From contig OZ242002.1 of assembly GCA_965204665.1 (NCBI GenBank), positions 1,497,995 to 1,561,994 on the forward strand: a stretch of 64,000 nucleotides of DNA. The letters run 5' to 3'. Below are positions 3,803-64,000 of the stretch, piece by piece (within the stretch, counting starts at the first letter, position 1; each line of letters begins with the position of its first letter). This DNA is from Thermodesulfobacteriota bacterium (GTDB taxonomy: Bacteria > Desulfobacterota_D > UBA1144 > Nemesobacterales > Nemesobacteraceae). Under the pieces are notes generated by a model. That model did not search any database. It saw nothing but the letters and a program-made list of their open reading frames with translations, and was not told the DNA's origin. Both the position numbers and the translations under genes were made by a program.

Positions 3803-6800
3803 ATGAAGACGAATAAAAAAACCAGTTCGTCATATGAGCAACTGAATGCTCTTCTGGATGAGAGAATTCTTTTTCTGGACGGGGCGATGGGAACCATGAT
3901 CCAGCGCCACAAACTTACAGAAGAGCATTTCAGGGGGAAATTGTTTGAGGACCACTCTGTGGACCTGAAGGGGAACAATGATCTGCTTACTCTTACTCAA
4001 CCCGAAATCATATACCAAATCCACACTGCCTACTTTGAGGCGGGCGCTGATATAGTGGAGACGAACACCTTCAGTTCCACTTCAATAGCCCAAGCTGATT
4101 ACGGACTCTCCGACTGGGCTTACAAACTTAATTTCGAGTCCGCCGGAATCGCGAAAAGAGCCGCACGGGACTTTATGGATGAAAACCCTAACAGACAGTG
4201 CTTCGTCGCAGGTTCTCTCGGCCCCACGAATAAGACCGCCTCAATGTCTCCTGATGTAAACGACCCCTCATACAGGTCCATCACGTTCGATGAATTGGTG
4301 AAGGCGTATCGTGAACAGACACAGGCTCTTGTAGAGGGCGGCGCGGACATACTTCTTCCGGAAACTACCTTCGACACCCTGAATCTCAAAGCTGCCGTAT
4401 ATGCGATTGAAGATTTTTTCTCCGATTACGGAGAGAGACTTCCGGTTATGGTCTCCGTAACCATAACGGATCGTTCCGGACGTACGCTTTCAGGTCAGAC
4501 GGTGGAAGCGTTCTGGAATTCGGTACGGCACGCAAAGCCTCTTAGCGTCGGTCTTAACTGCGCTATGGGAGCACGGGATATGCGCCCTTACTTAGAGGAA
4601 ATTTCAAACATCGCGGACTGCAGGGTGAGTTGCTATCCTAATGCCGGGCTTCCGAATCCGCTCAGTGAGACCGGATATGATGAAACTCCTGAAACCACTT
4701 CTGAAATCCTGCTTGATTTCGCCCGAAGCGGTTTTCTCAATATTGTCGGCGGATGCTGCGGCACTACTCCTGACCATATAAGGGCGGTGGTCGAAAGACT
4801 TTCCCCGATAACTCCGAGAGACATCCCGGCAACTAAGAGTCTTACCAGACTCAGTGGACTTGAGCCGCTTAATATATCGGCTTCGGCAGAAGCGCCTTTT
4901 GTATTGATAGGGGAGAGAACCAACGTCACGGGGTCTCCAAAGTTTTCAGAACTGGTGAAGCAGGGAGATTTCGAAGGTGCGGTCTCAGTTGCGTTTCAGC
5001 AGGTTCAGAATGGAGCAAACATAATAGATGTAAATTTCGATGAAGGACTTCTGGATTCAGAAGAATGCATGAAGCGGTTTCTAAATCTTATCGCGTCGGA
5101 GCCTGAAGTGACGAAAGTTCCGATAATGATAGACAGTTCTAAATGGTCCGTCATAGAGCAGGGTCTCAAATGCATACAGGGTAAGTGCATAGTGAATTCC
5201 ATAAGCCTCAAGGAAGGTGAAGAGACGTTCTGCCGGCATGCGCGCTCTGCGATGCGCTATGGTGCGGCTGTTGTTGTGATGGCTTTCGACGAGAAGGGAC
5301 AGGCGGTTGAGAAACAGGAAAAGGTCGACATATGCAGAAGGGCTTACCGAATACTCACGGAAGAAGTCGGAATGGACCCCTGCGACATAATTTTTGATCC
5401 CAATATCCTTACTGTGGGTACCGGTATAGAGGAACATGATCCATACGCGGTGAATTTCATGGAAGCTGTAAGAGAGATAAAGCGGGCTTGTCCTAAATCT
5501 CTTACAAGCGGAGGAGTGAGCAACATATCGTTTGCTTTTAGGGGAAACAACGTGGTGCGTGAAGCCATGCACAGCGCATTTCTGTACCACTCGATAAAAT
5601 GCGGTCTCGACTTGGGAATAGTAAACGCGGGTATGCTGGCTGTCTATGACGATATAGAACCCGAACTGCTCCGCATGGTGGAAGATGTTCTCCTTAACCG
5701 CCGCCCTGACGCGACGGAGAAACTTGTGGAGTATGCAAAGCATTTTGAAGGAGTAAAGACGGGTTCTTCTGAAAGGGACGGCGCCGAGTGGAGAGAGGAA
5801 TCTGTGGAGAAACGCCTTGAGTACTCACTTGTAAACGGCGTAACGGACTTTATAGAGAGCGACACTGAAGAGGCTCGGGCGAAATACGGCAGGCCTCTTG
5901 AGGTCATAGAGGGTCCTCTTATGGATGGCATGAAGGTCGTGGGGGACTTGTTCGGCGACGGCAGAATGTTTCTTCCTCAGGTGGTGAAAAGCGCCAGGGT
6001 GATGAAAAGAGCTGTCGCTTACCTGCAGCCGTTTATGGAGAAAGAAAAAACTACAGGCGGGTCGTCTAAGGGAAAGTTCGTCATAGCTACGGTTAAGGGA
6101 GATGTTCACGATATCGGGAAAAACATCGTGTCAGTAGTTCTGAGTTGCAATAACTACGAGGTTATAGATCTCGGAGTTATGGTTCCATGCGATAGAATTC
6201 TGAATGCGGCGAAGCAGGAATGTGCAGATTTTATAGGTCTGAGCGGACTCATAACGCCGTCTCTTGACGAAATGGTGCATAACGCAGCGCAGATGGAACG
6301 CGAGGGATTTAAAATTCCGCTTCTGATCGGCGGAGCAACAACCAGCAGGGCGCATACTGCGATAAAAATAGCTCCTTTCTACAGGGGTATAGTGGATTAC
6401 ATACCGGATGCGTCTCTTGTGGTTGGGGTGTGTAATCAGATAACGAATCCGGAAAAAATCTCTAATTACAAAAAAAATCTTAAAAAAAGCAACTTTGAGC
6501 AGCAGAAGTTGTTTGAGCAGGCGAAGTCGAAGATAGAATGTCTTTCTCTTGAGGAGGCGAGGAAGAAAGCTTTTTCCACAGACTGGGAAAACACGGAACC
6601 TGATTATCCGGAAAAACTCGGGATTTTCGTATATGACGAAATTGACCTTGCCGAAGTCTCAGAATATATAGACTGGTCTCCGTTTTTTTGGGCGTGGGAA
6701 CTCAAGGGAGTTTTCCCGAAAATCCTTGATCATCCGAAAAGAGGGAAGCAAGCCAGAGAACTTTATCGCGACGGCAAATCGCTTATGGATAGAATAGTCT

Positions 6801-7815: not shown

Positions 7816-9255
7816 TCAGTCTACGAACTCATACTTGTTCTGGCTGATTATATTCCCCGCTCGGTCGTTGTTTGCCGAGCCGCTTACTCGTATCTCAACA
7901 ACTTCAACTGCTCCTACGGAAATCTTGCCGGCAGCGTTGGTCAACGCTCTGGCCCCCGCCGCGAAGCCGCTGAACTGAATCTTGTCGTCCGCCAGTGTGA
8001 AGTCCGTAATGATGTCCACACCGCCGTCGGCTTTTCTGATGAGGAAAGTGTCGTTTCCGGCTCCTCCCGTAAGGTTGTCGGCGCCTTCTTCGCCTATGAG
8101 AACATCATTTCCCGCTCCGCCGTTGAGATTGTCTTCGCCTTTACCGCCTCTGAGGGTGTCGTTTCCTCCCCTACCTTCAAGAGTGTCGCCGGCGTTTCCT
8201 CCTGTGAGAGTATTCGCCTTGCTGTCCCCTTTGAAAGTAACAGATGAAATACGAGGAGCGGACCTGAAACTTGCCAGTACGGCTGAAAGGTTCTCGAAGT
8301 TGGACATATTGGAAGTATGAGTGCTGTCTGTAAGATCGAATTCGTTTCTGTGCCCGGTGCCGTCCACCGTGTAGGTGTTGCCTTGGATGAAATACTGACC
8401 TCCGTACACTATAAGAGTATCGTTGCCTTCACCGCCGTCTGCCGTACCTGCAGAGCCGTTAGCAAATTTAAGAGGAGAGGGTTCGATCGTATCATCTCCC
8501 TTGCCGCCTATCAGAGTATCCGCACCGTACCATCCGATCAGAACGTTGTCCCCGTCGTCTCCCGTGATGTGGTCGTCACCTCTGCTGCCCGCAACATCCT
8601 CGATACTCTCAAATGTATCATTCCCGAATGTGGCGTGCGTGAAGGTTTCTGAACTGAGGTCGAAAGTAACAGCCACCTTCCGCGTGTCACTCGATATATT
8701 CCCGCCGAAAGCAGCAGGGGGACCGGAAAAAAATAACATGTCCCGCCCGAGGCCGCCGTTGAACGTGTCGTCTCCCGGGTCCGTAATGAAGAAGAAATCA
8801 GTTCCCCCGCCGCCGTGGAGTTCATCATTTCCGGCGTCACCATAGATATCCTCGCTCCCGTCACCGCCGTAGAGAGTGTCGGTACCTGCTCCACCCCGAA
8901 TATAGTCATCCCCGCCTTCGCCGTAAACAACATCATCACCGTCTCCGGCTCTGATCTCGTTGGTGTCATCATTTCCGCAGATGACGTCGTCATCTGCGGT
9001 TCCCTGAATTAACCGTACGCCTCTCACCGCATTTATACCGTCACTTCTATCGCATCTGGGATCATCGGTCGGTGCCGGGTCCCCGCCCGGGTCACCTTTG
9101 TCCCCCTTATCTCCTTTCGGTCCCGCCACTCCAGGGTCTCCCTTATCTCCTTTTGCCCCGTCTTTCCCTGCCGGACCCATCTCTCCTTCACAGGCGGCAA
9201 GGAAAACCGCTCCGCCGAGCAGAAACAACATCACTAAGAAATTACGTAATCTCAT
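7816..9255 (-). CDS. Lipoprotein with collagen-like Gly-X-Y repeats and RTX (GGxGxD) calcium-binding beta-roll repeats, paralog 1
   Basis: Signal peptide plus lipobox (LAAC), then GPAGKDGAKGDKGDPG...-type triplets, then many GGAGNDTL / GGxGxD nonapeptide repeats. The C-terminal ~230 aa are about 90% identical to paralog 3. GGAGG RBS. Confidence 0.85.
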   Translation of the reverse strand: MRLRNFLVMLFLLGGAVFLAACEGEMGPAGKDGAKGDKGDPGVAGPKGDKGDKGDPGGDPAPTDDPRCDRSDGINAVRGVRLIQGTADDDVICGNDDTNEIRAGDGDDVVYGEGGDDYIRGGAGTDTLYGGDGSEDIYGDAGNDELHGGGGTDFFFITDPGDDTFNGGLGRDMLFFSGPPAAFGGNISSDTRKVAVTFDLSSETFTHATFGNDTFESIEDVAGSRGDDHITGDDGDNVLIGWYGADTLIGGKGDDTIEPSPLKFANGSAGTADGGEGNDTLIVYGGQYFIQGNTYTVDGTGHRNEFDLTDSTHTSNMSNFENLSAVLASFRSAPRISSVTFKGDSKANTLTGGNAGDTLEGRGGNDTLRGGKGEDNLNGGAGNDVLIGEEGADNLTGGAGNDTFLIRKADGGVDIITDFTLADDKIQFSGFAAGARALTNAAGKISVGAVEVVEIRVSGSANNDRAGNIISQNKYEFVD

Positions 9256-9357: not shown

Positions 9358-9384
9358 ATTTTACCCCCCCCCGATTTGAGTCAA
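9358..9384 (-). promoter_or_regulatory. Sigma70-like promoter with poly-G(9) spacer tract upstream of paralog 1
   Basis: On the minus strand: TTGACT - caaatc + G9 (15 nt spacer) - TAAAAT. It lies about 100 nt upstream of the ATG at 9255. Confidence 0.6.
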
Positions 9385-18093: not shown

Positions 18094-18171
18094 TGGCGTC
18101 CCCGAGGGGATTTGAACCCCTGTTACCGGCGTGAAAGGCCGATGTCCTAGACCTGACTAGACGACGGGGAC
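18094..18171 (-). tRNA. tRNA-Glu (anticodon TTC), CCA encoded
   Basis: Reverse complement GTCCCCGTCGTCTAGTCAGG...CTTTCAC...GGTTCAAATCCCCTCGGGGACGCCA folds as a cloverleaf. Confidence 0.85.
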
Positions 18172-18182
18172 ATAAAAAGACA

Positions 18183-18255
18183 TGAGCCGTACAGGATTCG
18201 AACCTGTGACCCACTGCTTAAAAGGCAGTTGCTCTACCAGCTGAGCTAACGGCTC
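18183..18255 (-). tRNA. tRNA-Lys (anticodon TTT)
   Basis: Reverse complement GAGCCGTTAGCTCAGCTGGTAGAGC...CTTTTAA...GGTTCGAATCCTGTACGGCTCA. Confidence 0.85.
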
Positions 18256-18532: not shown

Positions 18533-21355
18533 ATGCGCCTGTCGTGGAATGAGGTCCGCATCAGGGCTGCCTCTTTCGCCGAGGAATGGAAGGATGCGAC
18601 CTACGAGAAGGGCGATACACAGAGTTTCTACAACGATTTTTTCGAAGTGTTCGGAGTTCGTCGGCGAAGCATCGCACGCTACGAGGAGCATGTCGCGAAG
18701 TTGAATGACAGCTCCGGATTCATCGACTTATTCTGGCCGGGCGTTCTCATCGTCGAACAAAAGAGCGCCGGGCGCGACCTGAAGGCAGCCTACGAACAGG
18801 CCGGCGAGTATTTCGACGCTTTGTCCGAAAACGAACGCCCGCGCTACATCCTCGTCAGTGACTTCCAGACCTTCGATCTTCACGACCTCGACGAGCGCGG
18901 AAAGGTCTCCTTTCCACTCGCGGACCTGCCCAAGCGTATCGAAGCGTTCAGTTTTATATTGGGTGTGCAGCGCAGGACCTTCCGCGATCAGGACCCGGCG
19001 AACATCGAGGCCGCCGAACTGGTCGGGCTGCTTCACGATGCGCTCGGAGACACCGGGTACAGCGGGCATGACTTGGAGCAGTTCTTGGTGCGGATTGTCT
19101 TCTGCCTGTTTGCCGACGACACGGGTATCTTCGAGCCGCGCGACCTCTTTCTTGATTTCCTTGAAGAACGTACCGGCGAGGACGGGGCAGATCTCGGTCC
19201 GCGACTTGCACAACTGTTCCAGGTCCTGGACACTCCGGAGGTCGAGCGTCAGAGCACGCTCGATGAAGACCTCGCATGTTTTCCTCATGTAAACGGCGAA
19301 CTATTCAAGGGGTCTCTGCGCATTCCGGCGTTTGACTCGGCGATGCGCACTGCACTGCTGAATGCCTGTCGCTTCGACTGGTCGAACATCTCACCCGCAA
19401 TCTTCGGAGCGCTTTTCCAGTCTGTGATGGAACCGGCGGAACGCCGCGCCCGGGGTGCGCATTACACGACCGAAAAGAACATCCTCAAAGTGATCGAACC
19501 ACTTTTCATGGACGGCCTGCGCGCCGAGTTTGAGCGGATCAGGACGCGGCGCGGACGCAACCGTCTCGCCCTGCTTCGTCAATTCCATGCAAGTCTCGGC
19601 AGTCTGACGTTCTTCGACCCCGCGTGCGGTTGCGGCAACTTCCTCATCATAGCCTACCGTGAACTGCGCCTGCTGGAAATCAAGGTCATCCAGGAGATCA
19701 GGAATGCCACCTTCACGACCCGATATAGAGAACTCAATGTCGTCTGGCAATCTGTGGTGGATGTGGACCAGTTCTACGGAATCGAGATCGGAGAGTTCCC
19801 CGTTCGCATAGCTGAAACGGCGCTTTGGATGATGGATCACATCATGAACAACCAGCTGAGTCTTGAGTTCGGCCAGAGTTTTGTTCGTATCCCGCTTGAG
19901 AAGTCGCCGCACATCCTTCACGAGGACGCGCTGGAAGCAGACTGGTCGGACCTGTTGCCGCCGGGCGAGTGCTCCTTCGTACTTGGGAACCCGCCTTTTG
20001 TCGGGGCGAAGTATCAGACACCGGAGCAGCGCGCTCAGGTGCACGGGGTCGCGATGCTGGGCAAGAGCGGCGGCACGCTGGATTATGTCTCCGCATGGTT
20101 CATCAAGGCGGGCGAGTACGTGAAAGGTGAAAATGTCCGCATCGGCTTTGTCGCGACCAATTCGATCACCCAGGGCGAACAGGTCGCGCAGCTCTGGCCG
20201 ATCCTGTTCGAGCGTTGTCGGATGGAAATCGCCTTCGCGCACCGGACCTTCGCTTGGGGGTCGGACGCGCTGGGCAAAGCGCATGTCCATGTCGTCATTC
20301 TCGGCCTTGACCGCCGCGAGGCAGTACCGTCGGATAGGCGTCTGTTCAGTTATCCCGACATAAACGGCGAACCGGAAGAAAGCCGCCACGCTGCGCTGTC
20401 TCCCTATCTTTACGATGCCGCGGGGCTGTCGGACCCGCATCTGACGGTGCGGGAGGAAAACCGGCCGATCAACGGGATGCGGAGACTGATTATCGGTTCC
20501 CAACCCATCGACGGCGGCAACTACATATTCGATGAGCAGGACCGCGCCGCGTTTCTTGATGCGGAGCCGGATGCCTCACCCTATCTTCGACCTTTCATAG
20601 GGGCGAAAGAATACCTACAGGGCGGCAAGCGTTGGATTCTGGCTCTGCACGATGTGCCGCCCGATGCGCTGGCGCGTCTGCCGCGCGTACGCGAGCGGAT
20701 CGTTGCGGTTCAGACCTATCGCCGGAAGAGTAACCGTAAATCGACTCTGAATCTTGCCGAGACTCCTATGCTCTACCAGGTCAATCTTCTTCCCACCGAA
20801 CCGTTTCTGTTGATTCCTCGGGTCAGTTCCGAGCGGCGGGAATATGCGCCCATCGGCTGGCTGGAGCCGCCGGCTATTCCCAGCGATGCCGCGCTTGTGC
20901 TTCCTGAAGCCACCTTGGAGGATTTCGCGCTGTTGACTTCTGCGATGCACATGACGTGGCTGCGCCATGTCGGCGGGAGACTTGAGAGTCGCTACCGCTA
21001 TTCCATCGGCCTTGTGTACAACACTTTCCCGTCGCCTCCTGCAGGCGCGGACCTGTCGAAGTTACGACCCCTGGCGCAAGCCGTGCTCGATGCCCGGGCC
21101 GATCATCCAGGTGCAACACTAGCCCGCCTGTATGATCCCGTCCTTATGCCGCCGAACCTGCGCCGTGCGCATCAAAAACTTGACCGTACGGTGGACCGGC
21201 TCTACCGGCGTACCGGATTCAGGTTCGAGTATGAGCGTGCGGAACATCTGTTCTTACTCTATGAGAAGATGCTCGCACCGCTGCACGCCGGTCGGAAGAA
21301 GACGCGACGGCGCCGACCGGGGAGGGTCGTACCGATGAAAAGAGCGAGTTGCTGA
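18533..21355 (+). CDS. MmeI-family Type IIL restriction-modification enzyme (single-chain endonuclease + gamma-class N6-adenine methyltransferase + TRD)
   Basis: N-terminal D-x9-ExK nuclease motif (IDLFWPGVLIVEQKSAG). MTase motif I FFDPACGCGNFLI and motif IV GNPPFVG. Family blocks NSITQGEQV, GGRLESRYRYS and LVYNTFP. The gene is strongly GC-rich compared with its neighbours. Confidence 0.8.
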   Translation: MRLSWNEVRIRAASFAEEWKDATYEKGDTQSFYNDFFEVFGVRRRSIARYEEHVAKLNDSSGFIDLFWPGVLIVEQKSAGRDLKAAYEQAGEYFDALSENERPRYILVSDFQTFDLHDLDERGKVSFPLADLPKRIEAFSFILGVQRRTFRDQDPANIEAAELVGLLHDALGDTGYSGHDLEQFLVRIVFCLFADDTGIFEPRDLFLDFLEERTGEDGADLGPRLAQLFQVLDTPEVERQSTLDEDLACFPHVNGELFKGSLRIPAFDSAMRTALLNACRFDWSNISPAIFGALFQSVMEPAERRARGAHYTTEKNILKVIEPLFMDGLRAEFERIRTRRGRNRLALLRQFHASLGSLTFFDPACGCGNFLIIAYRELRLLEIKVIQEIRNATFTTRYRELNVVWQSVVDVDQFYGIEIGEFPVRIAETALWMMDHIMNNQLSLEFGQSFVRIPLEKSPHILHEDALEADWSDLLPPGECSFVLGNPPFVGAKYQTPEQRAQVHGVAMLGKSGGTLDYVSAWFIKAGEYVKGENVRIGFVATNSITQGEQVAQLWPILFERCRMEIAFAHRTFAWGSDALGKAHVHVVILGLDRREAVPSDRRLFSYPDINGEPEESRHAALSPYLYDAAGLSDPHLTVREENRPINGMRRLIIGSQPIDGGNYIFDEQDRAAFLDAEPDASPYLRPFIGAKEYLQGGKRWILALHDVPPDALARLPRVRERIVAVQTYRRKSNRKSTLNLAETPMLYQVNLLPTEPFLLIPRVSSERREYAPIGWLEPPAIPSDAALVLPEATLEDFALLTSAMHMTWLRHVGGRLESRYRYSIGLVYNTFPSPPAGADLSKLRPLAQAVLDARADHPGATLARLYDPVLMPPNLRRAHQKLDRTVDRLYRRTGFRFEYERAEHLFLLYEKMLAPLHAGRKKTRRRRPGRVVPMKRASC

Positions 21356-38223: not shown

Positions 38224-39124
38224 CTATTCTAAGCAATAAAACAATTTTTTCCGTGCACAAGGGATTTGTGCTGTTTTTGGTTCCTGTATCTTATCGCCCG
38301 TCGAACCAGGAGTTTTCAGTTGTTGTCTATTGTACAGATGCAGGCTGTTCTAAATGACAAAATTACGCCGAGCAGATCCTGTTTCCTTGCTGAGGCATTT
38401 TATCCCGAGTCCGAATTACGATCTGGGTGTCCCGAAACCGCTACCAACCGACAGTTATAAAGATTCCATCACGAGAACTGAATATTCTCGGGGCAGACCT
38501 CGACGGTGACGGAAACCGGCGTGCGTTATCAACTGCAGCGGCTGAAGCCTGACCCCAGAGAACATAACGTGGATTTACACACGACTGGAGCAGAGCATAT
38601 ATAATCTCTTCGGCGTTATTGTCGGCGAATGCGGGGGTGAGTCGACATGGGTCAGACGCGTGACGCATTGCGCACACTGATATATACCCCACTGCCGCCG
38701 GTCGGGAGGGAAATATTGGCTGAGCTCAGGGAGAATCTGGACACTCTGAAACTGGACTTCTCAGACCTCAATGCCTCCTGCGACATCAGGGCGCGGGCGT
38801 ATTCGGCGCTGAATACCGAATAACGATGGGATACAGGTTAAAAGCGAAAAAGCCGCCGAGTAAGAAGCCTTTTAACCGCGGGAAATCCTTGGCGACCAAT
38901 CACCGGAGCCTGCTGAAGAAAAAACAACGCGAGACGGCGGACTCAGTCTGCAATCTGGCAATTGAGACTGTGAGAGTATCAAGAGAAAGATCGTTAAAGA
39001 ATAAACCGATTGTCAGGAATACGTCTGTTTTTTTTGAAGGAACAGGTTGAAAATCTTCCGGATCAGGTTCTACACCCCCAAATCCGGTGTCATAATGTTG
39101 AAACAGGAGATTTCTACCCCCGTT

Positions 39125-40615
39125 TCACGCCGTCTGCGGACCGTAAACACTCCTCCCCGCGCAATACTCCCTGAATTTTTCCACACCCGGGATGTTCAAA
39201 ACCCGGGTCAAGTTGTAAGTCAGCGTCATCAGACTGAACTCTCCCCTGCACTTCTCAAGTCCCCGCATAAGAAACTGATGAAAACCGTTTCCGACCTTCA
39301 ATGTTCCGAACAGATGTTCAACAATTCTCCCCCGCTTCCTGATCTTCTCTTCTCCCTGTTCCATTCTCCGCCTGTGCCTCTCAAGCACTTCATGGTGTTC
39401 CCATCTTTGTATCAATCTGACTTGCTTCTCACCGATACAATGCCTGCGCATCGAACACGCCCTGCAGTCCGCACTTCTGCTTGTATATATAGTGTACCTC
39501 TTCCCATTTCTAACCCTTGGTTTTACGCGGGGGTCAGCCTCCTGCCCTGCGGACAATGATAACAATCCTCTCCGGCATCGTAAGTGAATTCGTCAAGACT
39601 GTAACGCCCCCGTTGTTTCATTCTCGAACTGTTGTCGGGAACAGGAACATAGACTGTAATGTCCTCATCCTCGCACCGCTTCAGTTCCATGCTCTCGTAA
39701 TAACCTCCGTCAGCCAGTCCTGTCAATTGTTCCGTATCAAGACTTTTCTTCGCTTCCGTAAGCATCCCGGCCAGTTGATGGTTGTCCGTGCCGTCCTGAA
39801 CCACATTCTCGGCAACTACAAGCTTGTGCTTCGAATCCACCGCTATCTGCGCGTTGTAACCCGCCACGCTCTGCCCCCGCTTCCTGAGCAGCCTCGCGTC
39901 TTTGTCCACCTTTGACACCTGAGTGTCACCACTTCTCTCCATGCGGTCCTTAGTCTCCCGATTCTCCTTCTGACGCTTCTTCAACTTCTCTATCTTCTCC
40001 CTCAACATCTTGTCGTTGCCCGCATCCTGTCTTCCCGCCTTCTCATCAGCGGCGTCAGCCTCCTCAAGTTCCTGCTGATACTCTTCTATCCTGCTCTCTA
40101 TATTCTCCAATTCCCTGTCTATATACCCTCGGGTCCGTATGCTTGCCCTGCTCGCGTCCGCAGAAAAGAAAGAACCGTCGACCGCCACCTCATCCCCGCC
40201 GAACAGGGATAACTCCCTGCACAGCAGAACAAAATCCCTGTTGACCTTCCTCAGTTGCGCCGCATGGTTCTTGCGGAAATCAGCAATGCTCTTGTAAGAC
40301 GGCCGCATCCCTTTCACCAGCCAAATCACTTCGAGATTCCTTCCGGTCTCCGCTTCCAGCTTGCGGCTGCTGCGTATACCATGCTGATATCCGTAAAGAT
40401 GCAAGCTTCAACATCGCCCACGGATTATAGGGAGGCTGCCCCGCTGTGGTGCCGGCCTCGGTATGCCTGAATCCCATGGAAGACAGATCAAGAGTGTCGA
40501 CGTAGGCATCAAGCGCCCGAACCTGGTGGTTCTCTCCGACATAGTCTTCCACTCTCTCGGGCAGAAGCAGTGTTTGTCCTCGGTCAAGTGCGGGTTTGTA
40601 TCGGCGTCGGTTCAT
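39125..40615 (-). pseudogene. IS1182-family (IS5 superfamily) transposase interrupted by two frameshifts
   Basis: Three consecutive ORFs in different frames together give about 497 aa: InsH-N-like (MLKL...YGYQHGIRSSRKLE), a coiled-coil middle, then a DDE/C-terminal YHCPQGRRLT...C..C..C segment. The shifts are near 40390 and 39540. Confidence 0.75.
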
Positions 40616-40756
40616 TGCGTATTACACCTCGGTATCAAGAATATGGAGTAATCGTACCTTAAGAAAGAGGATATATCAACACCTAACTGCATGTAATGCA
40701 AAGATAATTATGCTGTTGTATCAGCCGAGGGGGGGGGGATGAGGAAATCAGATTCT

Positions 40757-40829
40757 GTAAAAACATCTCGGTTCCGAGATATATGCTGAACAATGCAGAA
40801 TCTCAGAATACTTTCACAGTCTCAATTGG
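40757..40829 (+). repeat. Copy of Fic-gene 5' module (promoter + first 11 codons MQNLRILSQSQ), truncated
   Basis: Matches 56469-56538 (+) and 54630-54714 (-). The ORF stops after 17 codons here. Confidence 0.7.
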
Positions 40830-40940
40830 GGCAATCCTGCTAAAAAGTGACCTCAAATAAGCCCTGCCGTTTAAGTCGCGTTCACCGCGGAGGCGCTCAA
40901 AACGCTCTCCTCGGGCGTCTTTCCGTCTTTTCTCCCGAAC

Positions 40941-42257
40941 TCAGTCCACGAATTTATATAGGGTTGACGTACGGATTGAATTTCCTGTGGCGTCATCCTG
41001 CACATCAAATAAATTGTCTGATCCTATAGTGATCGTGCGACCCGATCCTGTCACCGTAGACCCGTTTGGAAAACCTTTGAACTGAAGTATATCGTTCTGA
41101 GAGGCGTTAAAGTCTTTAATATTATCCTTGTTGCTTCTGTGCGCGTACCTGATTTGAAAGGTGTCGGCACCGGCACCGCCCGTAAGAGTATCGGCACCGG
41201 CTTGTCCGTCGATCAGATCATTTCCGCCTCTTCCGTCAAGGGTATCGTTCCCGGCTAACCCGTCTAAATAATTTCCCAGGTTGTCTCCATTAAGAGTATC
41301 ATTTCCGTGTCCACCGAAAAGGTTCTCAATACCTGTAAATGTAATCGATCCTCCTCCATGACCACCGGCGTCAAAAGTCCCCGCGGCAAGATCAACGGTT
41401 CCAGCTGTATTATTTTGTGCGGAACGGATAAAACCATCCTTCACGGCCTGTATTCCCAGGCGGGGATCATCAGTTTGAATGCTCTCTAGGATTATAGCAT
41501 CACCAGTTTGCCGACCATTCCTGACAGCAGTTCCTATCGGGGGGCCGCCGTTAAAGGTGTCGTTGCCTTTACTGTTGACGAGATAAAATATATCTGCCCC
41601 GTCTCCACCGTTGAGCGTATCATTGCCTTCGCCGCCATGGAGAATGTCCCGCCCCGCATCGCCGTTGACCGTATCATCGCCGTCTACTCCCCGGATGAAA
41701 TCAATGCCGTCTCCGCCATGTAGGGTGTTAGCGCCGGCGTTGGCCCAGATGACATCCTCTCCATCTCCGCCATAGATGACGTCATCGGTAGTTTCCGTGC
41801 CTATGCTGCCTGCAACCTGAGCATCGACTTTGTCATCTCCGTCTTCACCGTATATCGTATCCGTGCCGGCACCACCGGCTATCGTGTCGTTTCCGGCACC
41901 ACCGTAAACAGTATCATCTCCGGCTCCGGCACTGATGTTGTTCACGTACTGATTTCCGCAGATGATGTCGTCATCTCCAGTCCCCGTGATATTATTGGAG
42001 ACACCGGGCAGAGCATTTATACCGTTGCTCACGTCGCATCTGGGGTCACCGAAGGATTTTCCCTGATCTCCCTGCGGGCCCGCCGCTCCCTGTGTTCCCG
42101 AGTCTCCTTTATCACCCTTATCTCCTTTCGCCCCGTCTTTACCTGCCGGACCTGTTTCCCCCTTCGGGCCTGCCGGCCCCATATCCCCTTCACAGGCAGC
42201 AAGGAAAACCGCTCCGCCGAGCAGAAACAACAACACTAAGAAATTACGTGACTTCAT
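40941..42257 (-). CDS. Lipoprotein with collagen-like Gly-X-Y repeats and RTX calcium-binding repeats, paralog 2
   Basis: MKSRNFLVLLFLLGGAVFLAACEGDMGPAGPKGETGPAGKDG... followed by GGAGxDT repeats. It is more diverged than paralogs 1 and 3 but has the same architecture and the same C-terminal YKFVD ending. Confidence 0.85.
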   Translation of the reverse strand: MKSRNFLVLLFLLGGAVFLAACEGDMGPAGPKGETGPAGKDGAKGDKGDKGDSGTQGAAGPQGDQGKSFGDPRCDVSNGINALPGVSNNITGTGDDDIICGNQYVNNISAGAGDDTVYGGAGNDTIAGGAGTDTIYGEDGDDKVDAQVAGSIGTETTDDVIYGGDGEDVIWANAGANTLHGGDGIDFIRGVDGDDTVNGDAGRDILHGGEGNDTLNGGDGADIFYLVNSKGNDTFNGGPPIGTAVRNGRQTGDAIILESIQTDDPRLGIQAVKDGFIRSAQNNTAGTVDLAAGTFDAGGHGGGSITFTGIENLFGGHGNDTLNGDNLGNYLDGLAGNDTLDGRGGNDLIDGQAGADTLTGGAGADTFQIRYAHRSNKDNIKDFNASQNDILQFKGFPNGSTVTGSGRTITIGSDNLFDVQDDATGNSIRTSTLYKFVD

Positions 42258-42285: not shown

Positions 42286-42313
42286 ATTCTACCCCCCCCC
42301 CATATGAAGTCAA
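42286..42313 (-). promoter_or_regulatory. Sigma70-like promoter with poly-G(10) spacer tract upstream of paralog 2
   Basis: On the minus strand: TTGACT - tcatat + G10 (16 nt spacer) - TAGAAT. GGAGG RBS before the ATG at 42257. Confidence 0.6.
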
Positions 42314-54599: not shown

Positions 54600-54629
54600 A
54601 GATTCCTTTGAAACGGTCGTAATCAGATG

Positions 54630-54714
54630 AGACTGTGAAAATATTCTGAGGTTCTGCATTGTTCAGCGTAGACCTTGGAACCGAGATGTTTTTACAGAAT
54701 CTGATTTGTCCCCA
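54630..54714 (-). repeat. Inverted copy of Fic-gene 5' module (MQNLRIFSQS...), truncated
   Basis: Reverse complement matches 40745-40829 and 56469-56538. Confidence 0.7.
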
Positions 54715-54821: not shown

Positions 54822-54848
54822 TTGACTTCAGTCGGGGGGGGGTAAAAT
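54822..54848 (+). promoter_or_regulatory. Sigma70-like promoter with poly-G(9) spacer tract upstream of paralog 3
   Basis: TTGACT - tcagtc + G9 (15 nt spacer) - TAAAAT. AAGGAG RBS 8 nt before the ATG at 54907. Confidence 0.6.
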
Positions 54849-54906
54849 CAAAAACATGTTCATAGAGACTATGTACAAACAAAATATATTTTAAGGAGTT
54901 TATGTC

Positions 54907-56334
54907 ATGAGATTACGTAATTTCTTAGTGATGTTGTTTCTGCTCGGCGGCGCGGTTTTCTTTGCTGCCTGTGAAGGGGATATGGGTCCGGCGGGTCCGA
55001 AAGGAGATAAGGGCGACCCGGGAACACCGGGACCGGCAGGACCTCCAGGAGCACAAGGACCGGCGGGACCCTCGGGCGATGTCTCCGGTGATCCCAGATG
55101 CGATGTAGGTAACGGCATAGATTCGACTAAAGGCCAACGGGTGATCCAGGGAACCGATGGTGACGATGTCATCTGCGGGAATAATACCGTCAACGACATT
55201 AAAGCCGGTGATGGTGACGACATTGTCTACGGTGCAGGAGCCGACGATGATATATACGGTGAGAAAGGTGACGACACTCTCTACGGAGAAAACGGACAGG
55301 ACTTTATTCGGGGTGGAGAAGGTAACGATGTTCTCTACGGTAACGGTGAGAACGACGATGTCTATGGCGGCCCCGGAAATGATAAACTCTACGGCGGAGA
55401 AAGAACTGATTTCTTCTTCATCGCGGACCCGGGAGACGATACGTTCGACGGCGGTCCCGGTCCGGATATGTTAATTTTTTCCGGTCCTACTCCTAATAAC
55501 GGCGGTAATATACCGGAAACCACGCGGAATGTGGCTCTTACTTTCGACCTCCGTTCAAAAACCCACACGCACGCCACGTTCGGGACTGATGCATTTGAGA
55601 GTATCGAGGATATTGCGGGCAGTAGAGGTAACGATCATATTACAGGAGACGACGGGGACAATGTTTTACTGGGATGGTACGGTACGGACACTCTGATAGG
55701 CGGCAAGGGAGATGATACGATCGAACCCTCTCCTCTTAAATTTAATAACGGCTTTGCAGGTACAGCAGACGGCGGTGAAGGCAACGATACTCTTGTAGTG
55801 TACGGAGGTATGTATGTAATCCAGGGCAACACCTACACGGTGGACGGCACCGGGCACAGAAACGAATTCGATCTTGAAGACAGCAGTCATACTTCCACTA
55901 TGTCCAACTTCGAGAACCTTTCAGCCGTACTGAGAAGTTTCAGAACTCCTCGTAGTTCATCTGTTACTTTCAAAGGGGACTCCAAGGCTAATATTCTCAC
56001 GGGCGGAAACGCCGCAGACACTCTTGAAGGTAGAGGAGGGAACGATACTCTGATAGGCGGCAAAGGCGCCGACAACCTTACCGGCGGAGCCGGAAACGAC
56101 ACTTTCCTCATCGGAAAAGCCGACGGCGGTGTGGATATCATTAAGGATTTCACATTGGCGGACGACAAGATTCAGTTCAGCGGCTTCGCAGCGGGGGCCA
56201 GAGCGTTGACCAACGCTGCCGGCAAGATTTCCGTAGGAGGAGTTGAAGTTGTTGAGATACAGGTAAGCAACTCGGCAAACAACGAACTAGCGGGGAATAT
56301 CATCAGCCGGAACAAGTATGAGTTCGTAGACTGA
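54907..56334 (+). CDS. Lipoprotein with collagen-like Gly-X-Y repeats and RTX calcium-binding repeats, paralog 3
   Basis: MRLRNFLVMLFLLGGAVFFAACEGDMGPAGPKGDKGDPGTPGPAGPPGAQGPAGPSG..., then GGxGxD repeats. Its C-terminal region is about 90% identical to paralog 1. Confidence 0.85.
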   Translation: MRLRNFLVMLFLLGGAVFFAACEGDMGPAGPKGDKGDPGTPGPAGPPGAQGPAGPSGDVSGDPRCDVGNGIDSTKGQRVIQGTDGDDVICGNNTVNDIKAGDGDDIVYGAGADDDIYGEKGDDTLYGENGQDFIRGGEGNDVLYGNGENDDVYGGPGNDKLYGGERTDFFFIADPGDDTFDGGPGPDMLIFSGPTPNNGGNIPETTRNVALTFDLRSKTHTHATFGTDAFESIEDIAGSRGNDHITGDDGDNVLLGWYGTDTLIGGKGDDTIEPSPLKFNNGFAGTADGGEGNDTLVVYGGMYVIQGNTYTVDGTGHRNEFDLEDSSHTSTMSNFENLSAVLRSFRTPRSSSVTFKGDSKANILTGGNAADTLEGRGGNDTLIGGKGADNLTGGAGNDTFLIGKADGGVDIIKDFTLADDKIQFSGFAAGARALTNAAGKISVGGVEVVEIQVSNSANNELAGNIISRNKYEFVD

Positions 56335-56424: not shown

Positions 56425-56468
56425 TGCAGTAAAGGGAAAACCTTGATTCAGACAGGGCGAAAGAGACC

Positions 56469-56538
56469 GTAAAAACATCTCGTTTCTGAGATCTATGCTG
56501 AACAATGCAGAACCTCAGAATACTTTCACAGTCTCAAA
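56469..56538 (+). repeat. Fic-gene 5' module (promoter + start of ORF), full copy leading into the Fic pseudogene
   Basis: gtaaaaacatctcgtttctgagatctATGctgaacaATGcagaacctcagaatactttcacagtctca. Confidence 0.7.
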
Positions 56539-57508
56539 TCGGGAAAACACAAACTGCGGGACAATCCGCCGGCACTTATGCCAGGCGTATACTCAATCGG
56601 TTGCTGATTGATCTTGCGTGGAATTCCAGTCGTCTGGAAGGGAATACATACTCATTGATCGACACTGGGAGACTGATAGAATTCGGTGAAGAAGCGGCGG
56701 GAAGGAACCATACTGAAACGCAGATGATCCTTAACCACAAGGATGCAATTGAATTTCTGGTCGACTACGCCGACAAAATCGACTTCAACAGACACTCGAT
56801 ATGTAATCTGCATGCATTGCTGTCAAATAACCTGCTGGCGAATCGTGCGGCATCCGGACGCTTGCGTAGTATCGCCGTCGGCATCGGAGAGTCGGCTCTC
56901 CACCACTTGAGATACTGCAACTGATTGAAGAATGCTTTGCGCAGATACTGTCCAAAGCGGCCGGGATCGGGGACCCGTTCGAGCAGGCATTTTCCGTATT
57001 GGTTCACATACCCTATCTGCAGCCTTTCGAAGATGTGAACAAGCGTGTTTCGTGCCTAGCGGCCAACATTCCTCTGATTCGCAATAATTTCGTGCCGTTG
57101 TCTTTCACGGATGTTCCGAAGGATGCTTATACAGAAGCCGCCCTCGGGGTATATGAACTGAATGATGTCGCGTTGCTCAAAGATGTCTTCTTGCGGGCCT
57201 ATGAACGGTCAGCGGCAAAACATATCTCTGTCCAGCGGGCACTGGGAGAACCGGATGTCTTTCGTCTCAAATATCGGACCGAATTGCGTGAGATAATAGC
57301 CGAGTTGATTCGAACTGGAACCGGGCGTGCGCAAGTCACAGCTGAAATCGTACAGTGGGCGGAGAACAGAATCAGGCTTGATGACCGCGATGCGTTCGTG
57401 GAAGTCGTCGAGGAGGAACTCATAGAACTGCATGAAGGAAATTTTGCACGCTACAAGGTGCTGTTATCCGAATATGTTGCATGGAAGGATGTATGGACCG
57501 CGAAGTAA
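56505..57508 (+). pseudogene. Fic/DOC-family protein with degenerate active-site motif and a frameshift
   Basis: N-terminal LIDLAWNSSRLEGNTYSL (Fic_N-like) in frame 0 stops at 56924. Frame 2 is open from 56870 and carries ...DPFEQAFSVLVHIPYLQPFEDVNKR, i.e. HPFx(D/E)GNGR degraded to QPFEDVNKR. Confidence 0.55.
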
Positions 57509-58103
57509 GAAAATCGTTAGAGGTGTGTTTGACGATTGCAAGTAGGTTTCAGGCAATAAACCGAGAAGGTTTAGATTTACCGGAAGTGAAGTAGTGGGGG
57601 GGGGCCGATGCTTGTGTTGAAAAACTCATACCCGCTGAGTATTATTTGAAGAAAGGGAAGGCAATCCCGCAGCATAAGGATGGAGTAAAGGCGATGACGA
57701 TTTGTAAGTACGACATGGAAAGATTACCGCGGTCATCGTGATGCCGATGTGTCGAGTCTTCCTTTCATTTCAAAATGCCCTTTGTTTCAAGACTCGGACT
57801 TTCTGACATGACTTTTCAGGTCAACTATTAGACGGGTCGCGGAAGTCGTTGTTTTTCCAACATTTATTTGCGCTGAACTGTAGGTGCGGGTGGACCGGCA
57901 TATGACAGTCGCTGATGCCCGCTACAGACTTAAGTCCATCCACCCGATAATCATTGCATGATGAAACACCGGGTGCGGTTTCGTCATGAAAATGGTTCAT
58001 CAATTTAGGTTGTATCGGGTCGGAAAGTCTGATATCGGCCTGAGCATTTTTTCAGGAATCGGCTACTATAATCATTTATGACTGAGCGCGGAGGTTTTTA
58101 CGT

Positions 58104-59497: not shown

Positions 59498-64000
<4,503 letters not shown>

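What the first reader, a model, noticed from the sequence alone, without database searches (positions are those of the whole stretch)
54822..54848. Poly-G tracts inside the promoter spacers of all three RTX/collagen-like lipoprotein paralogs: candidate phase-variation switches
Seen in sequence: each of the three paralogs (starts at 9255-, 42257-, 54907+) is preceded by the same promoter architecture, -35 TTGACT, then a 6 nt variable stretch plus a homopolymeric G run of 9, 10 and 9 nt (gene-sense), then -10 TAAAAT or TAGAAT, giving spacers of 15, 16 and 15 nt. The rest of the window has no comparable homopolymers. Established knowledge: G/C tracts in the -35/-10 spacer are a well-documented slipped-strand mechanism for ON/OFF or graded phase variation of surface proteins, for example poly-C tracts in Bordetella fim promoters. 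Inference: these three surface lipoproteins are independently phase-variable. Spacers of 15-16 nt are suboptimal, so one or two extra G residues would bring them to the optimal 17.
Basis: partly seen in the sequence, partly recalled or inferred. Interest (0 to 1): 0.85.

Follow-up and report, generated by a model that had tools for sequence, protein, structure and literature searches.

The report
Poly-G promoter switches on lipoprotein family
Each gene of a large family of collagen/RTX surface-lipoprotein genes in an uncultured Dadabacteria-like bacterium has an uninterrupted run of G's between its two promoter boxes, a known type of slippage-prone on/off switch that has not been described for this lineage or protein family.

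Summary
All three paralogs have TTGACT-N6-G9/G10-TA(A/G)AAT, with spacers of 15, 16 and 15. The claim that the window has no other comparable homopolymer is wrong: there is a G10 at 40729-40738 inside an IS and an orphan G9 at 57596-57604.

The architecture extends far beyond these three genes.
- The window's genome (about 1.98 Mb, Dadabacteria lineage) carries at least 34 paralogs.
- A sister genome (OZ220467.1) has the same -35/G-run/-10 design at 21 of 23 paralog loci fetched, but with G12-G16 and spacers of 18-22 (mode 19).
- Upstream sequence, the N stretch and the 5'UTRs have diverged, while the pure G run persists.
- Other promoter-like sites in both lineages peak at a 17-nt spacer.
- Two co-assembled variants that are 99.6% identical over 1.48 kb differ by a single indel, G14 versus G15, in the tract.
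- One window promoter and a paralogous promoter from another assembly are identical from the -35 to the ATG, except G10 versus G9.

I conclude these are slipped-strand contingency promoters, mostly resting at off-optimal lengths. The mechanism is known (porA, tp0126, vlp); the lineage, protein family and scale are new. Switching itself is not shown.

An IS also inserts specifically into these G tracts.

The parts
54822..54848 (+). Promoter of paralog 3: -35 TTGACT (54822-54827), variable tcagtc, G9 (54834-54842), -10 TAAAAT (54843-54848). Spacer 15.
54907..56334 (+). Paralog 3 coding sequence, 475 aa: lipoprotein signal (…FAAC), about 11 GXY collagen-like triplets, RTX beta-roll. AAGGAG ribosome-binding site at 54893-54898.
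   Evidence: HemolysinCabind 2.5e-35; pLDDT 86.5; best fold match: CyaA RTX domain
42286..42313 (-). Promoter of paralog 2: -35 TTGACT (42313-42308), tcatat, G10 (42301-42292; C run on the + strand), -10 TAGAAT (42291-42286). Spacer 16.
   Evidence: top match of the promoter scan, 10 of 12
40941..42257 (-). Paralog 2 coding sequence, 438 aa: lipoprotein signal, collagen-like repeats, RTX repeats.
   Evidence: HemolysinCabind 1.3e-38; Collagen 30.5 bits, above the 27.2 cutoff
9358..9384 (-). Promoter of paralog 1: -35 TTGACT (9384-9379), caaatc, G9 (9372-9364), -10 TAAAAT (9363-9358). Spacer 15. The 5'UTR is 102 nt.
7816..9255 (-). Paralog 1 coding sequence, 479 aa: lipoprotein signal, collagen-like repeats, RTX repeats.
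38959..40828 (-). IS1182-like insertion sequence with a frameshifted transposase, bounded by 28-nt inverted repeats. It lies 113 nt downstream of the paralog 2 stop codon.
40729..40738 (+). G10 tract inside the IS, between the right inverted repeat and the transposase start (C10 in the transposase sense). It is not in a recognisable -35/-10 spacer.
54628..54707 (-). Inverted copy of the last ~80 nt of the IS right end, 115 nt upstream of the paralog 3 -35.
   Evidence: (I6 93%, I7 88%)
56462..56546 (+). Direct copy of the IS right end, 128 nt downstream of the paralog 3 stop codon. With the 54628-54707 copy it brackets promoter and gene with outward-facing termini.
   Evidence: (D4 88%)
57596..57604 (+). 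Orphan G9 tract in a 600-nt gap without ORFs. It has no -35/-10 context and no similarity to the paralog promoters. Unexplained.

Best explanation
Each collagen/RTX lipoprotein gene has its own sigma-70-type promoter. The spacer between a near-consensus -35 (TTGACT) and a near-consensus -10 (TAAAAT or TAGAAT) consists of a short variable stretch followed by an uninterrupted G run.

Slipped-strand mispairing during replication adds or removes G's. That changes the -35/-10 spacing and therefore promoter strength, heritably, reversibly and independently for each gene. This makes the family a set of contingency loci.

In the assembled (majority) state the spacers are off-optimal: 15-16 nt here and 18-20 nt in the sister lineage. 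Most of the at least 34 genes would then be weakly expressed or silent, with subpopulations at 17 +/- 1 expressing different members.

Shown: the architecture, its conservation, tract purity, length differences between paralogs and between near-identical sequences, and a 17-nt peak at other promoter-like sites. Inferred: the transcription start, the effect of length on transcription, reversibility and rate, and surface exposure of the proteins.
For: 1. The motif is exact at all three genes. TTGACT-N6-G9 gives 3 matches against 0.00 expected.

2. The family is large. At least 29 of the best hits lie on the 1,980,752-bp contig that carries the exact match, plus 5 near-duplicates. The proteins have an RTX beta-roll, a collagen-like region and a lipobox. 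The signal peptide is the most conserved segment.

3. The same design occurs in four more promoters of the window's lineage from ERZ26693861: G9, G9, G9 and G7. It also occurs in 25 intact promoters of the sister lineage, G12-G16, spacers 18-22 with a mode of 19. The Der GTPase of the two lineages is 88% identical.

4. Upstream sequence, the N stretch and the 5'UTRs (28-102 nt) are diverged, while -35, G run and -10 are kept. No interrupted run was seen.

5. Outgroup relatives without the collagen-like region have no G or C run of 7 or more: L023 and L084.

6. Length polymorphism at near-identical sequence: L007 versus L206, contigs of one metagenome assembly, are 99.6% identical over 1482 nt and the sole gap is G14 versus G15. 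The window paralog 2 promoter and L208 are identical from -35 to ATG apart from G10 versus G9. Four comparisons with 95-97% identical flanks all differ by 1-2 G.

7. Non-G-tract TTGACN…TANNNT matches peak at spacer 17 in the sister lineage (12, against 1-7 at spacers 12-22; spacer 23 has 9, probably repeated IS copies). They peak at 16-17 in the window's lineage.

8. Precedent: a poly-G between -35 and -10 with an optimum at 17 nt in T. pallidum tp0126 and N. meningitidis porA (PMC7864442). Poly-A in the promoters of all M. hyorhinis vlp lipoprotein genes (PMC10502178).
Against: - There are no read-level, transcription-start or expression data for any locus.
- None of the 32 intact promoters has a 17-nt spacer in the consensus. 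The two lineages cluster tightly at 15 and 19, which could mean these are stable set-points rather than freely slipping tracts.
- The length differences rest on long-read assembly consensus. Homopolymers of 13-15 nt are error-prone, and the ERZ26693861 contigs carry a '2x' label suggesting low coverage.
- The paralogs share ancestry, so recurrence of the motif is not independent evidence.
- G runs of similar length occur in the window outside promoters (40729-40738 and 57596-57604).
Confidence: 0.7

Rival explanations
1. Static promoter element. The G run is conserved as a fixed structural feature or protein-binding site, for example for a family-specific regulator. Expression is then controlled conventionally, and length changes are rare and not used as a switch.
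For: Spacer lengths cluster tightly within each lineage: 15 in 5 of 7 promoters and 19 in 15 of 25. None is at 17. Total spacer length is kept even when the N/G boundary shifts, for example N3+G16, N5+G14 and N7+G12 all give 19.
Against: Run length ranges from 7-10 and from 12-16 among paralogs, and the spacer differs by 4 nt between sister lineages. That is hard to reconcile with one fixed binding geometry. The tract is the only indel between 99.6% identical haplotypes. Pure G runs of 9-16 nt are intrinsically unstable in every bacterium studied (established knowledge). The constant total of 19 can arise from substitutions at the run edge, with no selection on length.
Confidence: 0.15
2. The tract exists mainly as a target or by-product of mobile elements. 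On this view G runs are maintained or spread because IS elements and IS-bounded cassettes use them, not because they regulate the gene.
For: All three observed copies of a 2.44-kb IS sit inside paralog promoter G tracts, with G runs on both sides. The window IS carries its own G10. Copies of the IS end flank or adjoin paralogs in the window, L081 and L208.
Against: A target-site duplication copies a pre-existing tract; it does not create one. Of the 35 promoter tracts seen, 32 are intact. The tract always lies exactly between strong -35 and -10 boxes. The ISs associated with the two lineages are unrelated.
Confidence: 0.07
3. Non-B DNA or a supercoiling sensor. The G run modulates promoter melting or forms G-quadruplex or triplex structures, so that regulation is physical rather than mutational.
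For: The runs are long and pure, and lie immediately 5' of the -10 box.
Against: G9-G10 cannot form a three-tetrad intramolecular quadruplex. The tract lies upstream of the presumed start and is not transcribed. Nothing in the data needs this explanation.
Confidence: 0.05
4. Chance or assembly artefact.
For: None beyond the general unreliability of homopolymer lengths in long-read consensus.
Against: 3 matches against 0.00 expected. The same design appears in several independent contigs from two metagenome assemblies and in a circular genome.
Confidence: 0.01

Closest known systems
Neisseria meningitidis porA (poly-G) and Treponema pallidum tp0126 (poly-G) promoter-spacer phase variation
   Same: A homopolymeric G tract lies between the -35 and -10 of a sigma-70-type promoter of an envelope protein gene. 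Transcription is set by total spacer length, with an optimum at 17 nt (PMC7864442).
   Different: Those are single genes in pathogens, with switching shown experimentally. Here every member of a family of at least 34 genes carries the tract, the organism is an uncultured Dadabacteria-lineage bacterium, and nothing has been tested experimentally.
Mycoplasma hyorhinis vlp variable lipoprotein family (poly-A in each promoter)
   Same: It is a multigene family of lipoproteins with a conserved signal peptide and variable mature region. Each gene is transcribed separately and switched by insertions or deletions in a homopolymer in its own promoter (PMC10502178). OFF states at spacers longer than 17 nt resemble the sister lineage (own knowledge, Citti and Wise 1995).
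   Different: The tract is poly-A rather than poly-G. The vlp family has 3-7 clustered genes, whereas here there are at least 34 genes scattered among housekeeping genes. The proteins are unrelated: the Vlps have no RTX or collagen-like region.
Mycoplasma gallisepticum vlhA (pMGA) family with GAA repeats upstream of each gene (own knowledge)
   Same: It is a large family of dozens of lipoprotein genes, each with its own promoter-proximal simple repeat, and most are silent at any time.
   Different: The repeat is a trinucleotide located upstream of the promoter, not a homopolymer in the spacer.
Treponema pallidum tpr subfamily II and tprL poly-G promoters
   Same: Paralogous envelope-protein genes each have a poly-G of variable length in the promoter, and length heterogeneity within isolates is documented (PMC7864442).
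   Different: In tprL the transcription start lies 4 nt downstream of the poly-G (PMC7864442), so that tract is not a -35/-10 spacer element. The family is small.
RTX beta-roll proteins (CyaA RTX domain, serralysin C-terminal domain) and bacterial collagen-like proteins (Scl, BclA, Pasteuria PCLs)
   Same: The proteins have nonapeptide Ca2+-binding repeats with a predicted beta-roll and an N-terminal GXY collagen-like stretch.
   Different: Classical RTX proteins are exported by type I secretion using a C-terminal signal. These proteins carry an N-terminal lipoprotein signal peptide. I found no description of a collagen-RTX lipoprotein fusion.

Membership tests
Promoter-spacer homopolymer contingency loci (porA, tp0126, vlp type) | Uninterrupted homopolymer of at least about 7-8 nt | tested here: met
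   G9, G10 and G9 in the window. G7-G16 in 29 related promoters.
Promoter-spacer homopolymer contingency loci (porA, tp0126, vlp type) | The tract lies between the -35 and -10 hexamers of the promoter that actually drives the gene | tested here: inconclusive
   The sequence context is met: TTGACT and TA(A/G)AAT hexamers, and the promoter scan ranks the paralog 2 site first. The hexamers are the only conserved flanks. The transcription start has not been mapped.
Promoter-spacer homopolymer contingency loci (porA, tp0126, vlp type) | Tract length varies within or between populations at otherwise identical loci | tested here: inconclusive
   In the sister lineage, G14 versus G15 is the only indel in 1482 nt at 99.6% identity between contigs of one assembly. 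The window paralog 2 promoter and L208 differ only by G10 versus G9, but they are paralogous. There are no reads for the window loci, and homopolymer consensus error cannot be excluded.
Promoter-spacer homopolymer contingency loci (porA, tp0126, vlp type) | Transcription depends on tract length, with an optimum near a 17-nt spacer | not testable with these tools
   Indirect only: other promoter-like sites peak at 17 nt.
Promoter-spacer homopolymer contingency loci (porA, tp0126, vlp type) | High-frequency, reversible switching | not testable with these tools
   Needs culture, reporter assays or time-series deep sequencing.
RTX (repeats-in-toxin) proteins | Tandem GGxGxDxUx nonapeptide repeats forming a Ca2+-binding beta-roll | tested here: met
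   Pfam HemolysinCabind E-values of 2.5e-35, 5.6e-33 and 1.3e-38. The AlphaFold2 model has pLDDT 86.5 with strands at a 9-residue period. The best Foldseek match is the CyaA RTX domain, 7usl_C, at 3.2e-9.
RTX (repeats-in-toxin) proteins | Export by a type I secretion system through a C-terminal signal | not tested
   No T1SS genes lie next to the paralogs among the window ORFs scanned. The N-terminal lipoprotein signal suggests Sec/Lgt/Lsp export instead. This makes the proteins atypical RTX members.
Bacterial collagen-like proteins | Uninterrupted GXY triplet repeats | tested here: met
   Visible in all three translations. The Pfam Collagen model is above its cutoff only for paralog 2 (30.5 versus 27.2 bits), below it for paralog 1 (22.5 bits), and gives no hit for paralog 3. 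The stretches are short, about 10-15 triplets.
Bacterial lipoproteins | Signal peptide ending in a lipobox [LVI][ASTVI][GAS]C | tested here: met
   Read directly from the sequence: …AVFLAAC (paralogs 1 and 2) and …AVFFAAC (paralog 3), with Cys22 invariant across 53 family members. No dedicated predictor was available.

The most novel reading that the evidence does not exclude
A small-genome, probably host-associated Dadabacteria-lineage bacterium runs a combinatorial surface coat of at least 34 collagen/RTX lipoproteins.

Each gene would be gated by its own poly-G promoter switch that rests two steps from the optimum: below it in one lineage and above it in the sister lineage.

A second layer would operate on top. 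An IS recognises the poly-G switches and splits -35 from -10, and IS-end-bounded cassettes move promoter-plus-gene units around the chromosome.

That would be a phase and antigenic variation system comparable in scale to mycoplasma vlhA, but in a non-pathogen. It would imply strong diversifying pressure on symbiont surfaces from host phagocytosis or immunity, or from phages.
Probability: 0.3. Interest if true: 0.72.

Novelty: new member of a known kind. Interest (0 to 1): 0.58.

Why it matters
Homopolymer promoter switches are known almost only from animal pathogens such as Neisseria, Treponema, Mycoplasma, Haemophilus and Bordetella.

Finding one on every member of a family of at least 34 lipoprotein genes, about 2% of a 2-Mb genome, would change that picture. 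The organism is uncultured and of the Dadabacteria lineage. Its close relative was assembled as a circular contig (ctg6910c). It would suggest that stochastic variation of the cell surface is also central to this organism's way of life.

It also gives directly testable predictions. Tract-length distributions can be read from existing sequencing reads. Activity should peak at a 17-nt spacer.

The family offers a natural experiment as well: two sister lineages whose switches rest on opposite sides of the optimum.

The IS that inserts into the G tracts is a possible case of a mobile element targeting contingency loci.

Tried and rejected
- **Retrieving the rest of the window's genome.** I wanted to tabulate all paralog promoters. 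The look-up of encoding contigs has no record for P0001 or P0003. The genome is not among the genome contigs representatives. Only sister-lineage and low-coverage variant contigs could be read.
- **Metagenome scan for the promoter pattern.** None encodes the family by tblastn. This was a dead end, apart from showing that such motifs occur widely in unrelated organisms.
- **Literature.** I found no paper describing this family, poly-G promoters in Dadabacteria, or accession OZ220467. The host of the source samples could not be established.
- **Orphan G9 at 57596-57604.** It has no -35/-10 on either strand, no Rfam hit, no repeat family and no informative similarity to related loci. It remains unexplained.
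- **G10 at 40729-40738.** I first suspected a promoter remnant split by an IS, as seen in the sister lineage. I rejected this because the 28-nt inverted repeats place the tract inside the IS.
- **Altered helical geometry of poly(dG).poly(dC).** I considered this as a way to reconcile spacers of 15 and 19. I rejected it because the known twist difference is too small and would push both lineages in the same direction (own knowledge).
- **MerR-type 19-nt spacer promoters.** Rejected because the spacer has no dyad operator.
- **G-quadruplex.** Rejected because G9-G10 is too short.

Full report
**1. Observation**

The three sites read exactly as described.
- Paralog 3, + strand: TTGACT (54822-54827), tcagtc, G9 (54834-54842), TAAAAT (54843-54848). 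AAGGAG lies at 54893-54898 and the ATG at 54907.
- Paralog 2, - strand: TTGACT (42313-42308), tcatat, G10 (42301-42292), TAGAAT (42291-42286), ATG at 42257.
- Paralog 1, - strand: TTGACT (9384-9379), caaatc, G9 (9372-9364), TAAAAT (9363-9358), ATG at 9255.

The spacers are 15, 16 and 15 nt.

G9 gives 7 overlapping matches in 5 tracts, against 0.42 expected from dinucleotide shuffles. TTGACT-N6-G9 occurs 3 times against 0.00 expected. The generic promoter scan allows only 16-18-nt spacers. It ranks the paralog 2 site first in its region, with 10 of 12 matches, and for that reason cannot see the two 15-nt sites.

One statement is wrong. The window does contain other comparable homopolymers: a G10 at 40729-40738, a G9 at 57596-57604 and a G7 at 60187-60193.

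**2. The genes**

All three ORFs begin with a signal peptide ending in a lipobox (…FLAAC or …FFAAC). Collagen-like GXY triplets follow, then RTX nonapeptide repeats. Pfam HemolysinCabind E-values are 2.5e-35, 5.6e-33 and 1.3e-38. The Collagen model is above its cutoff only for paralog 2.

An AlphaFold2 model of paralog 3 built on a 53-member family alignment is confident (pLDDT 86.5). It shows strands at a 9-residue period. Its best matches among solved structures are the CyaA RTX domain and the serralysin and lipase beta-rolls.

Across the family, the signal peptide is the most conserved segment and the middle is variable with many indels. Variable lipoprotein families typically show this pattern (own knowledge).

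**3. Organism and family size**

The exact match to paralog 3 lies on a 1,980,752-bp contig. At least 29 of the best 120 homologues lie on a contig of that length. A cluster look-up adds 5 near-duplicates, giving at least 34 paralogs.

A second group of paralogs lies on a 2,386,527-bp contig. This is OZ220467.1, 'MAG: Thermodesulfobacteriota bacterium', which is the circular contig ctg6910c of assembly ERZ24894574.

The window's Der GTPase is 88% identical to that genome's Der. It is about 73% identical to Der from 'Candidatus Dadabacteria' MAGs.

The rest of the window is ordinary chromosome: MetH, PEPCK, AddAB, LigA, Der, TamB, and a DtxR-like gene next to a ZnuA-family gene. The paralogs are therefore scattered among housekeeping genes.

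Sanger-type sponge metagenome projects recover circular Dadabacteria MAGs from HiFi data (PMC12648040). I could not establish the host of these particular samples.

**4. Comparative anatomy of the promoters**

Window lineage (clade A). Four more promoters come from ERZ26693861 contigs:
- TTGACA-catgta-G9-TAGAAT and TTGACT-taaata-G9-TAGAAT in L081
- TTGACT-tcatat-G9-TAGAAT in L208
- TTGACA-taagta-G7-TAGAAT in L209, whose protein is identical to one on the window's genome

The seven clade A spacers are 15, 16, 15, 15, 15, 15 and 13.

Sister lineage (clade B). Of the 23 paralog loci fetched from OZ220467.1, 21 have a G12-G17 run about 100-160 nt upstream of the match. Twenty of these read TTGACT-N3-9-G12-16-TAAA(C/A/G)T. 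One more was found in L207, and four in co-assembled contigs. This gives 25 intact promoters: spacer 18 in five, 19 in fifteen, 20 in four and 22 in one.

More distant RTX relatives without the collagen-like region (L023 and L084) have no G or C run of 7 or more.

Lining up clade A and clade B promoters shows that only three elements are shared: the -35, the G run and the -10. The upstream sequence, the N stretch and the 5'UTR (28-102 nt) are unrelated.

A neutral spacer would have degenerated in the way the N stretch did. Keeping a pure run at 32 intact promoters argues for selection on the run itself.

**5. Is 17 nt the optimum in these bacteria?**

I counted TTGACN-Nk-TANNNT matches that contain no G tract. 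In clade B loci the count peaks at k = 17, with 12 matches against 1-7 at spacers 12-22. Spacer 23 has 9, probably from repeated IS copies. In clade A the peak is at k = 16-17, with 5 and 6 matches against 0-3 elsewhere.

The numbers are small, but the canonical spacing seems to apply.

**6. Evidence for tract instability**

(a) L007 (ctg6910c) and L206 (ctg6363l) come from the same assembly. They are 99.6% identical over 1482 nt, with 5 mismatches and one gap. The gap is G14 versus G15 in the promoter tract, and 120 nt on each side are identical.

(b) The window paralog 2 promoter and L208 are identical from the -35 through the 28-nt 5'UTR to the ATG, except for G10 versus G9. These two are paralogous or recombinant copies, not orthologues.

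(c) In four comparisons with 95-97% identical flanks, the runs differ every time: 12/14, 17/19, 12/13 and 13/14.

Caveats: these are assembly consensus sequences. Runs of 13 nt or more are error-prone in long-read data, and the ERZ26693861 contigs are labelled '2x'.

**7. Mechanism**

These are slipped-strand contingency promoters in which G gain or loss changes the -35/-10 spacing. The same mechanism is documented for T. pallidum tp0126 and N. meningitidis porA, with an optimum at 17 nt (PMC7864442). It is also documented for the poly-A tracts in the promoters of all M. hyorhinis vlp lipoprotein genes (PMC10502178).

With at least 34 independently switchable genes, most of them off-optimal in the majority state, the system resembles the large mycoplasma lipoprotein families in logic (own knowledge for vlhA).

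Shown: architecture, conservation, purity and length differences. Inferred: the transcription start, length-dependent activity, reversibility, and which lengths are ON. I put confidence at 0.7.

The main rival, at 0.15, is a static element. The tight clustering at 15 and 19 and the absence of any 17 could mean lineage-specific fixed geometry. Against that stand the 4-nt difference between sister lineages, the range of lengths among paralogs, and the tract being the only indel between near-identical haplotypes.

**8. Mobile elements around the switches (not part of the finding)**

In clade B, a 2,443-bp IS carrying a 594-aa DDE_Tnp_1, DDE_Tnp_1_assoc and DruA-domain transposase sits inside the promoter G tract.
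- L082: TTGACT-ttgtaga-G14-[IS]-G19-TAAACT
- L083: TTGACT-ttgtga-G13-[IS]-G13-TAAACT
- L003 shows the same right junction, with G17.

The L082 and L083 copies are 100% identical, and all three observed copies have the same orientation. This suggests recent, tract-targeted insertion that separates the -35 from the -10.

Other ISs interrupt a 5'UTR or coding region. L206 has an insertion in the signal-peptide codons. L083 has an IS66-family transposase gene 189 nt downstream of the -10 of an otherwise intact promoter.

In the window, an IS1182-like element with a frameshifted transposase spans 38959-40828 and contains the G10. Copies of about 80 nt of its right end bracket paralog 3 and its promoter with outward-facing termini, at 54628-54707 and 56462-56546. 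Similar end copies lie next to paralogs in L081 and L208. The gene-plus-switch unit may therefore be mobilisable.

**9. Verdict**

The finding is real and well read. The mechanism is a known kind. The lineage, the protein family (a collagen-RTX lipoprotein fusion) and the scale are new as far as the searched literature shows. I score interest at 0.58. It would rise if read-level heterogeneity and IS targeting of the tracts are confirmed.

Noticed in passing
L082 7417-9893; L083 13852-16320; L003 1-1400: A 2,443-bp IS lies inside the promoter poly-G tract of collagen/RTX paralogs in the sister lineage, with G13-G19 runs on both sides. The L082 and L083 copies are 100% identical, and all three observed copies have the same orientation. 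Its transposase is 594 aa with DDE_Tnp_1, DDE_Tnp_1_assoc and DruA-like domains. It appears to target the G tracts and splits the -35 from the -10.
   Followed up: partly
window 54628-54707 and 56462-56546 (also 40745-40834; L081 1986-2059; L208 about 4850-4935): Copies of about 80 nt of the right end of the window's IS1182-like element bracket paralog 3 and its promoter in inverted orientation, with the termini facing outward. Similar solo ends lie beside paralogs in related contigs. The promoter-plus-gene unit looks like the passenger of an IS-derived element, which could explain the expansion of the family.
   Followed up: partly
window 40729-40738 (inside the IS at 38959-40828): A G10 tract (C10 in the transposase sense) lies between the IS inverted repeat and the transposase start. 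No clear -35/-10 surrounds it. The tract is degenerate in the solo-end copies (GGGGAAATGGGGA upstream of paralog 3; GAAAGAAAAATG in L208). It may affect transposase expression; this was not tested.
   Followed up: partly
window 57596-57604: An orphan G9 sits in a 600-nt gap without ORFs, between a split Fic-like gene and an M23 peptidase gene. A promoter-like site (TTGAAA-17-TATTAT) starts 13 nt downstream. There is no Rfam hit, no repeat family and no similarity to the paralog promoters. Unexplained.
   Followed up: partly
L206 7641-9603; L083 4796-7029: Other IS insertions disable paralogs downstream of an intact poly-G promoter. In L206 an IS of about 1.96 kb lies in the signal-peptide codons, and it is absent from the 99.6-99.9% identical locus L007. 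In L083 an IS66-family transposase gene starts 189 nt downstream of the -10 of another intact promoter.
   Followed up: partly
window 18533-21355 (next to tRNA-Glu and tRNA-Lys at 18094-18255): A complete MmeI-like type IIL restriction-modification enzyme (940 aa, all five MmeI domains) lies in a segment with 55% G+C, against about 47% elsewhere. It is probably a horizontally acquired island beside tRNA genes.
   Followed up: no
window 56505-57508: Two adjacent ORFs (139 and 169 aa) have no Pfam hit. Together they look like a split, degenerate Fic-domain protein, with the motif QPFEDVNKR in place of HPFxxGNGR. This was judged by eye only.
   Followed up: no
None encodes this family. Poly-G promoter spacers may be widespread in uncultured bacteria.
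   Followed up: no
clade A versus clade B promoters: The sister lineages keep their switches on opposite sides of the canonical 17-nt spacer: 15 nt with G9 in one, and 19 nt with G13 in the other. Total spacer length is steadier than G-run length: N3+G16, N5+G14 and N7+G12 all give 19.
   Followed up: partly
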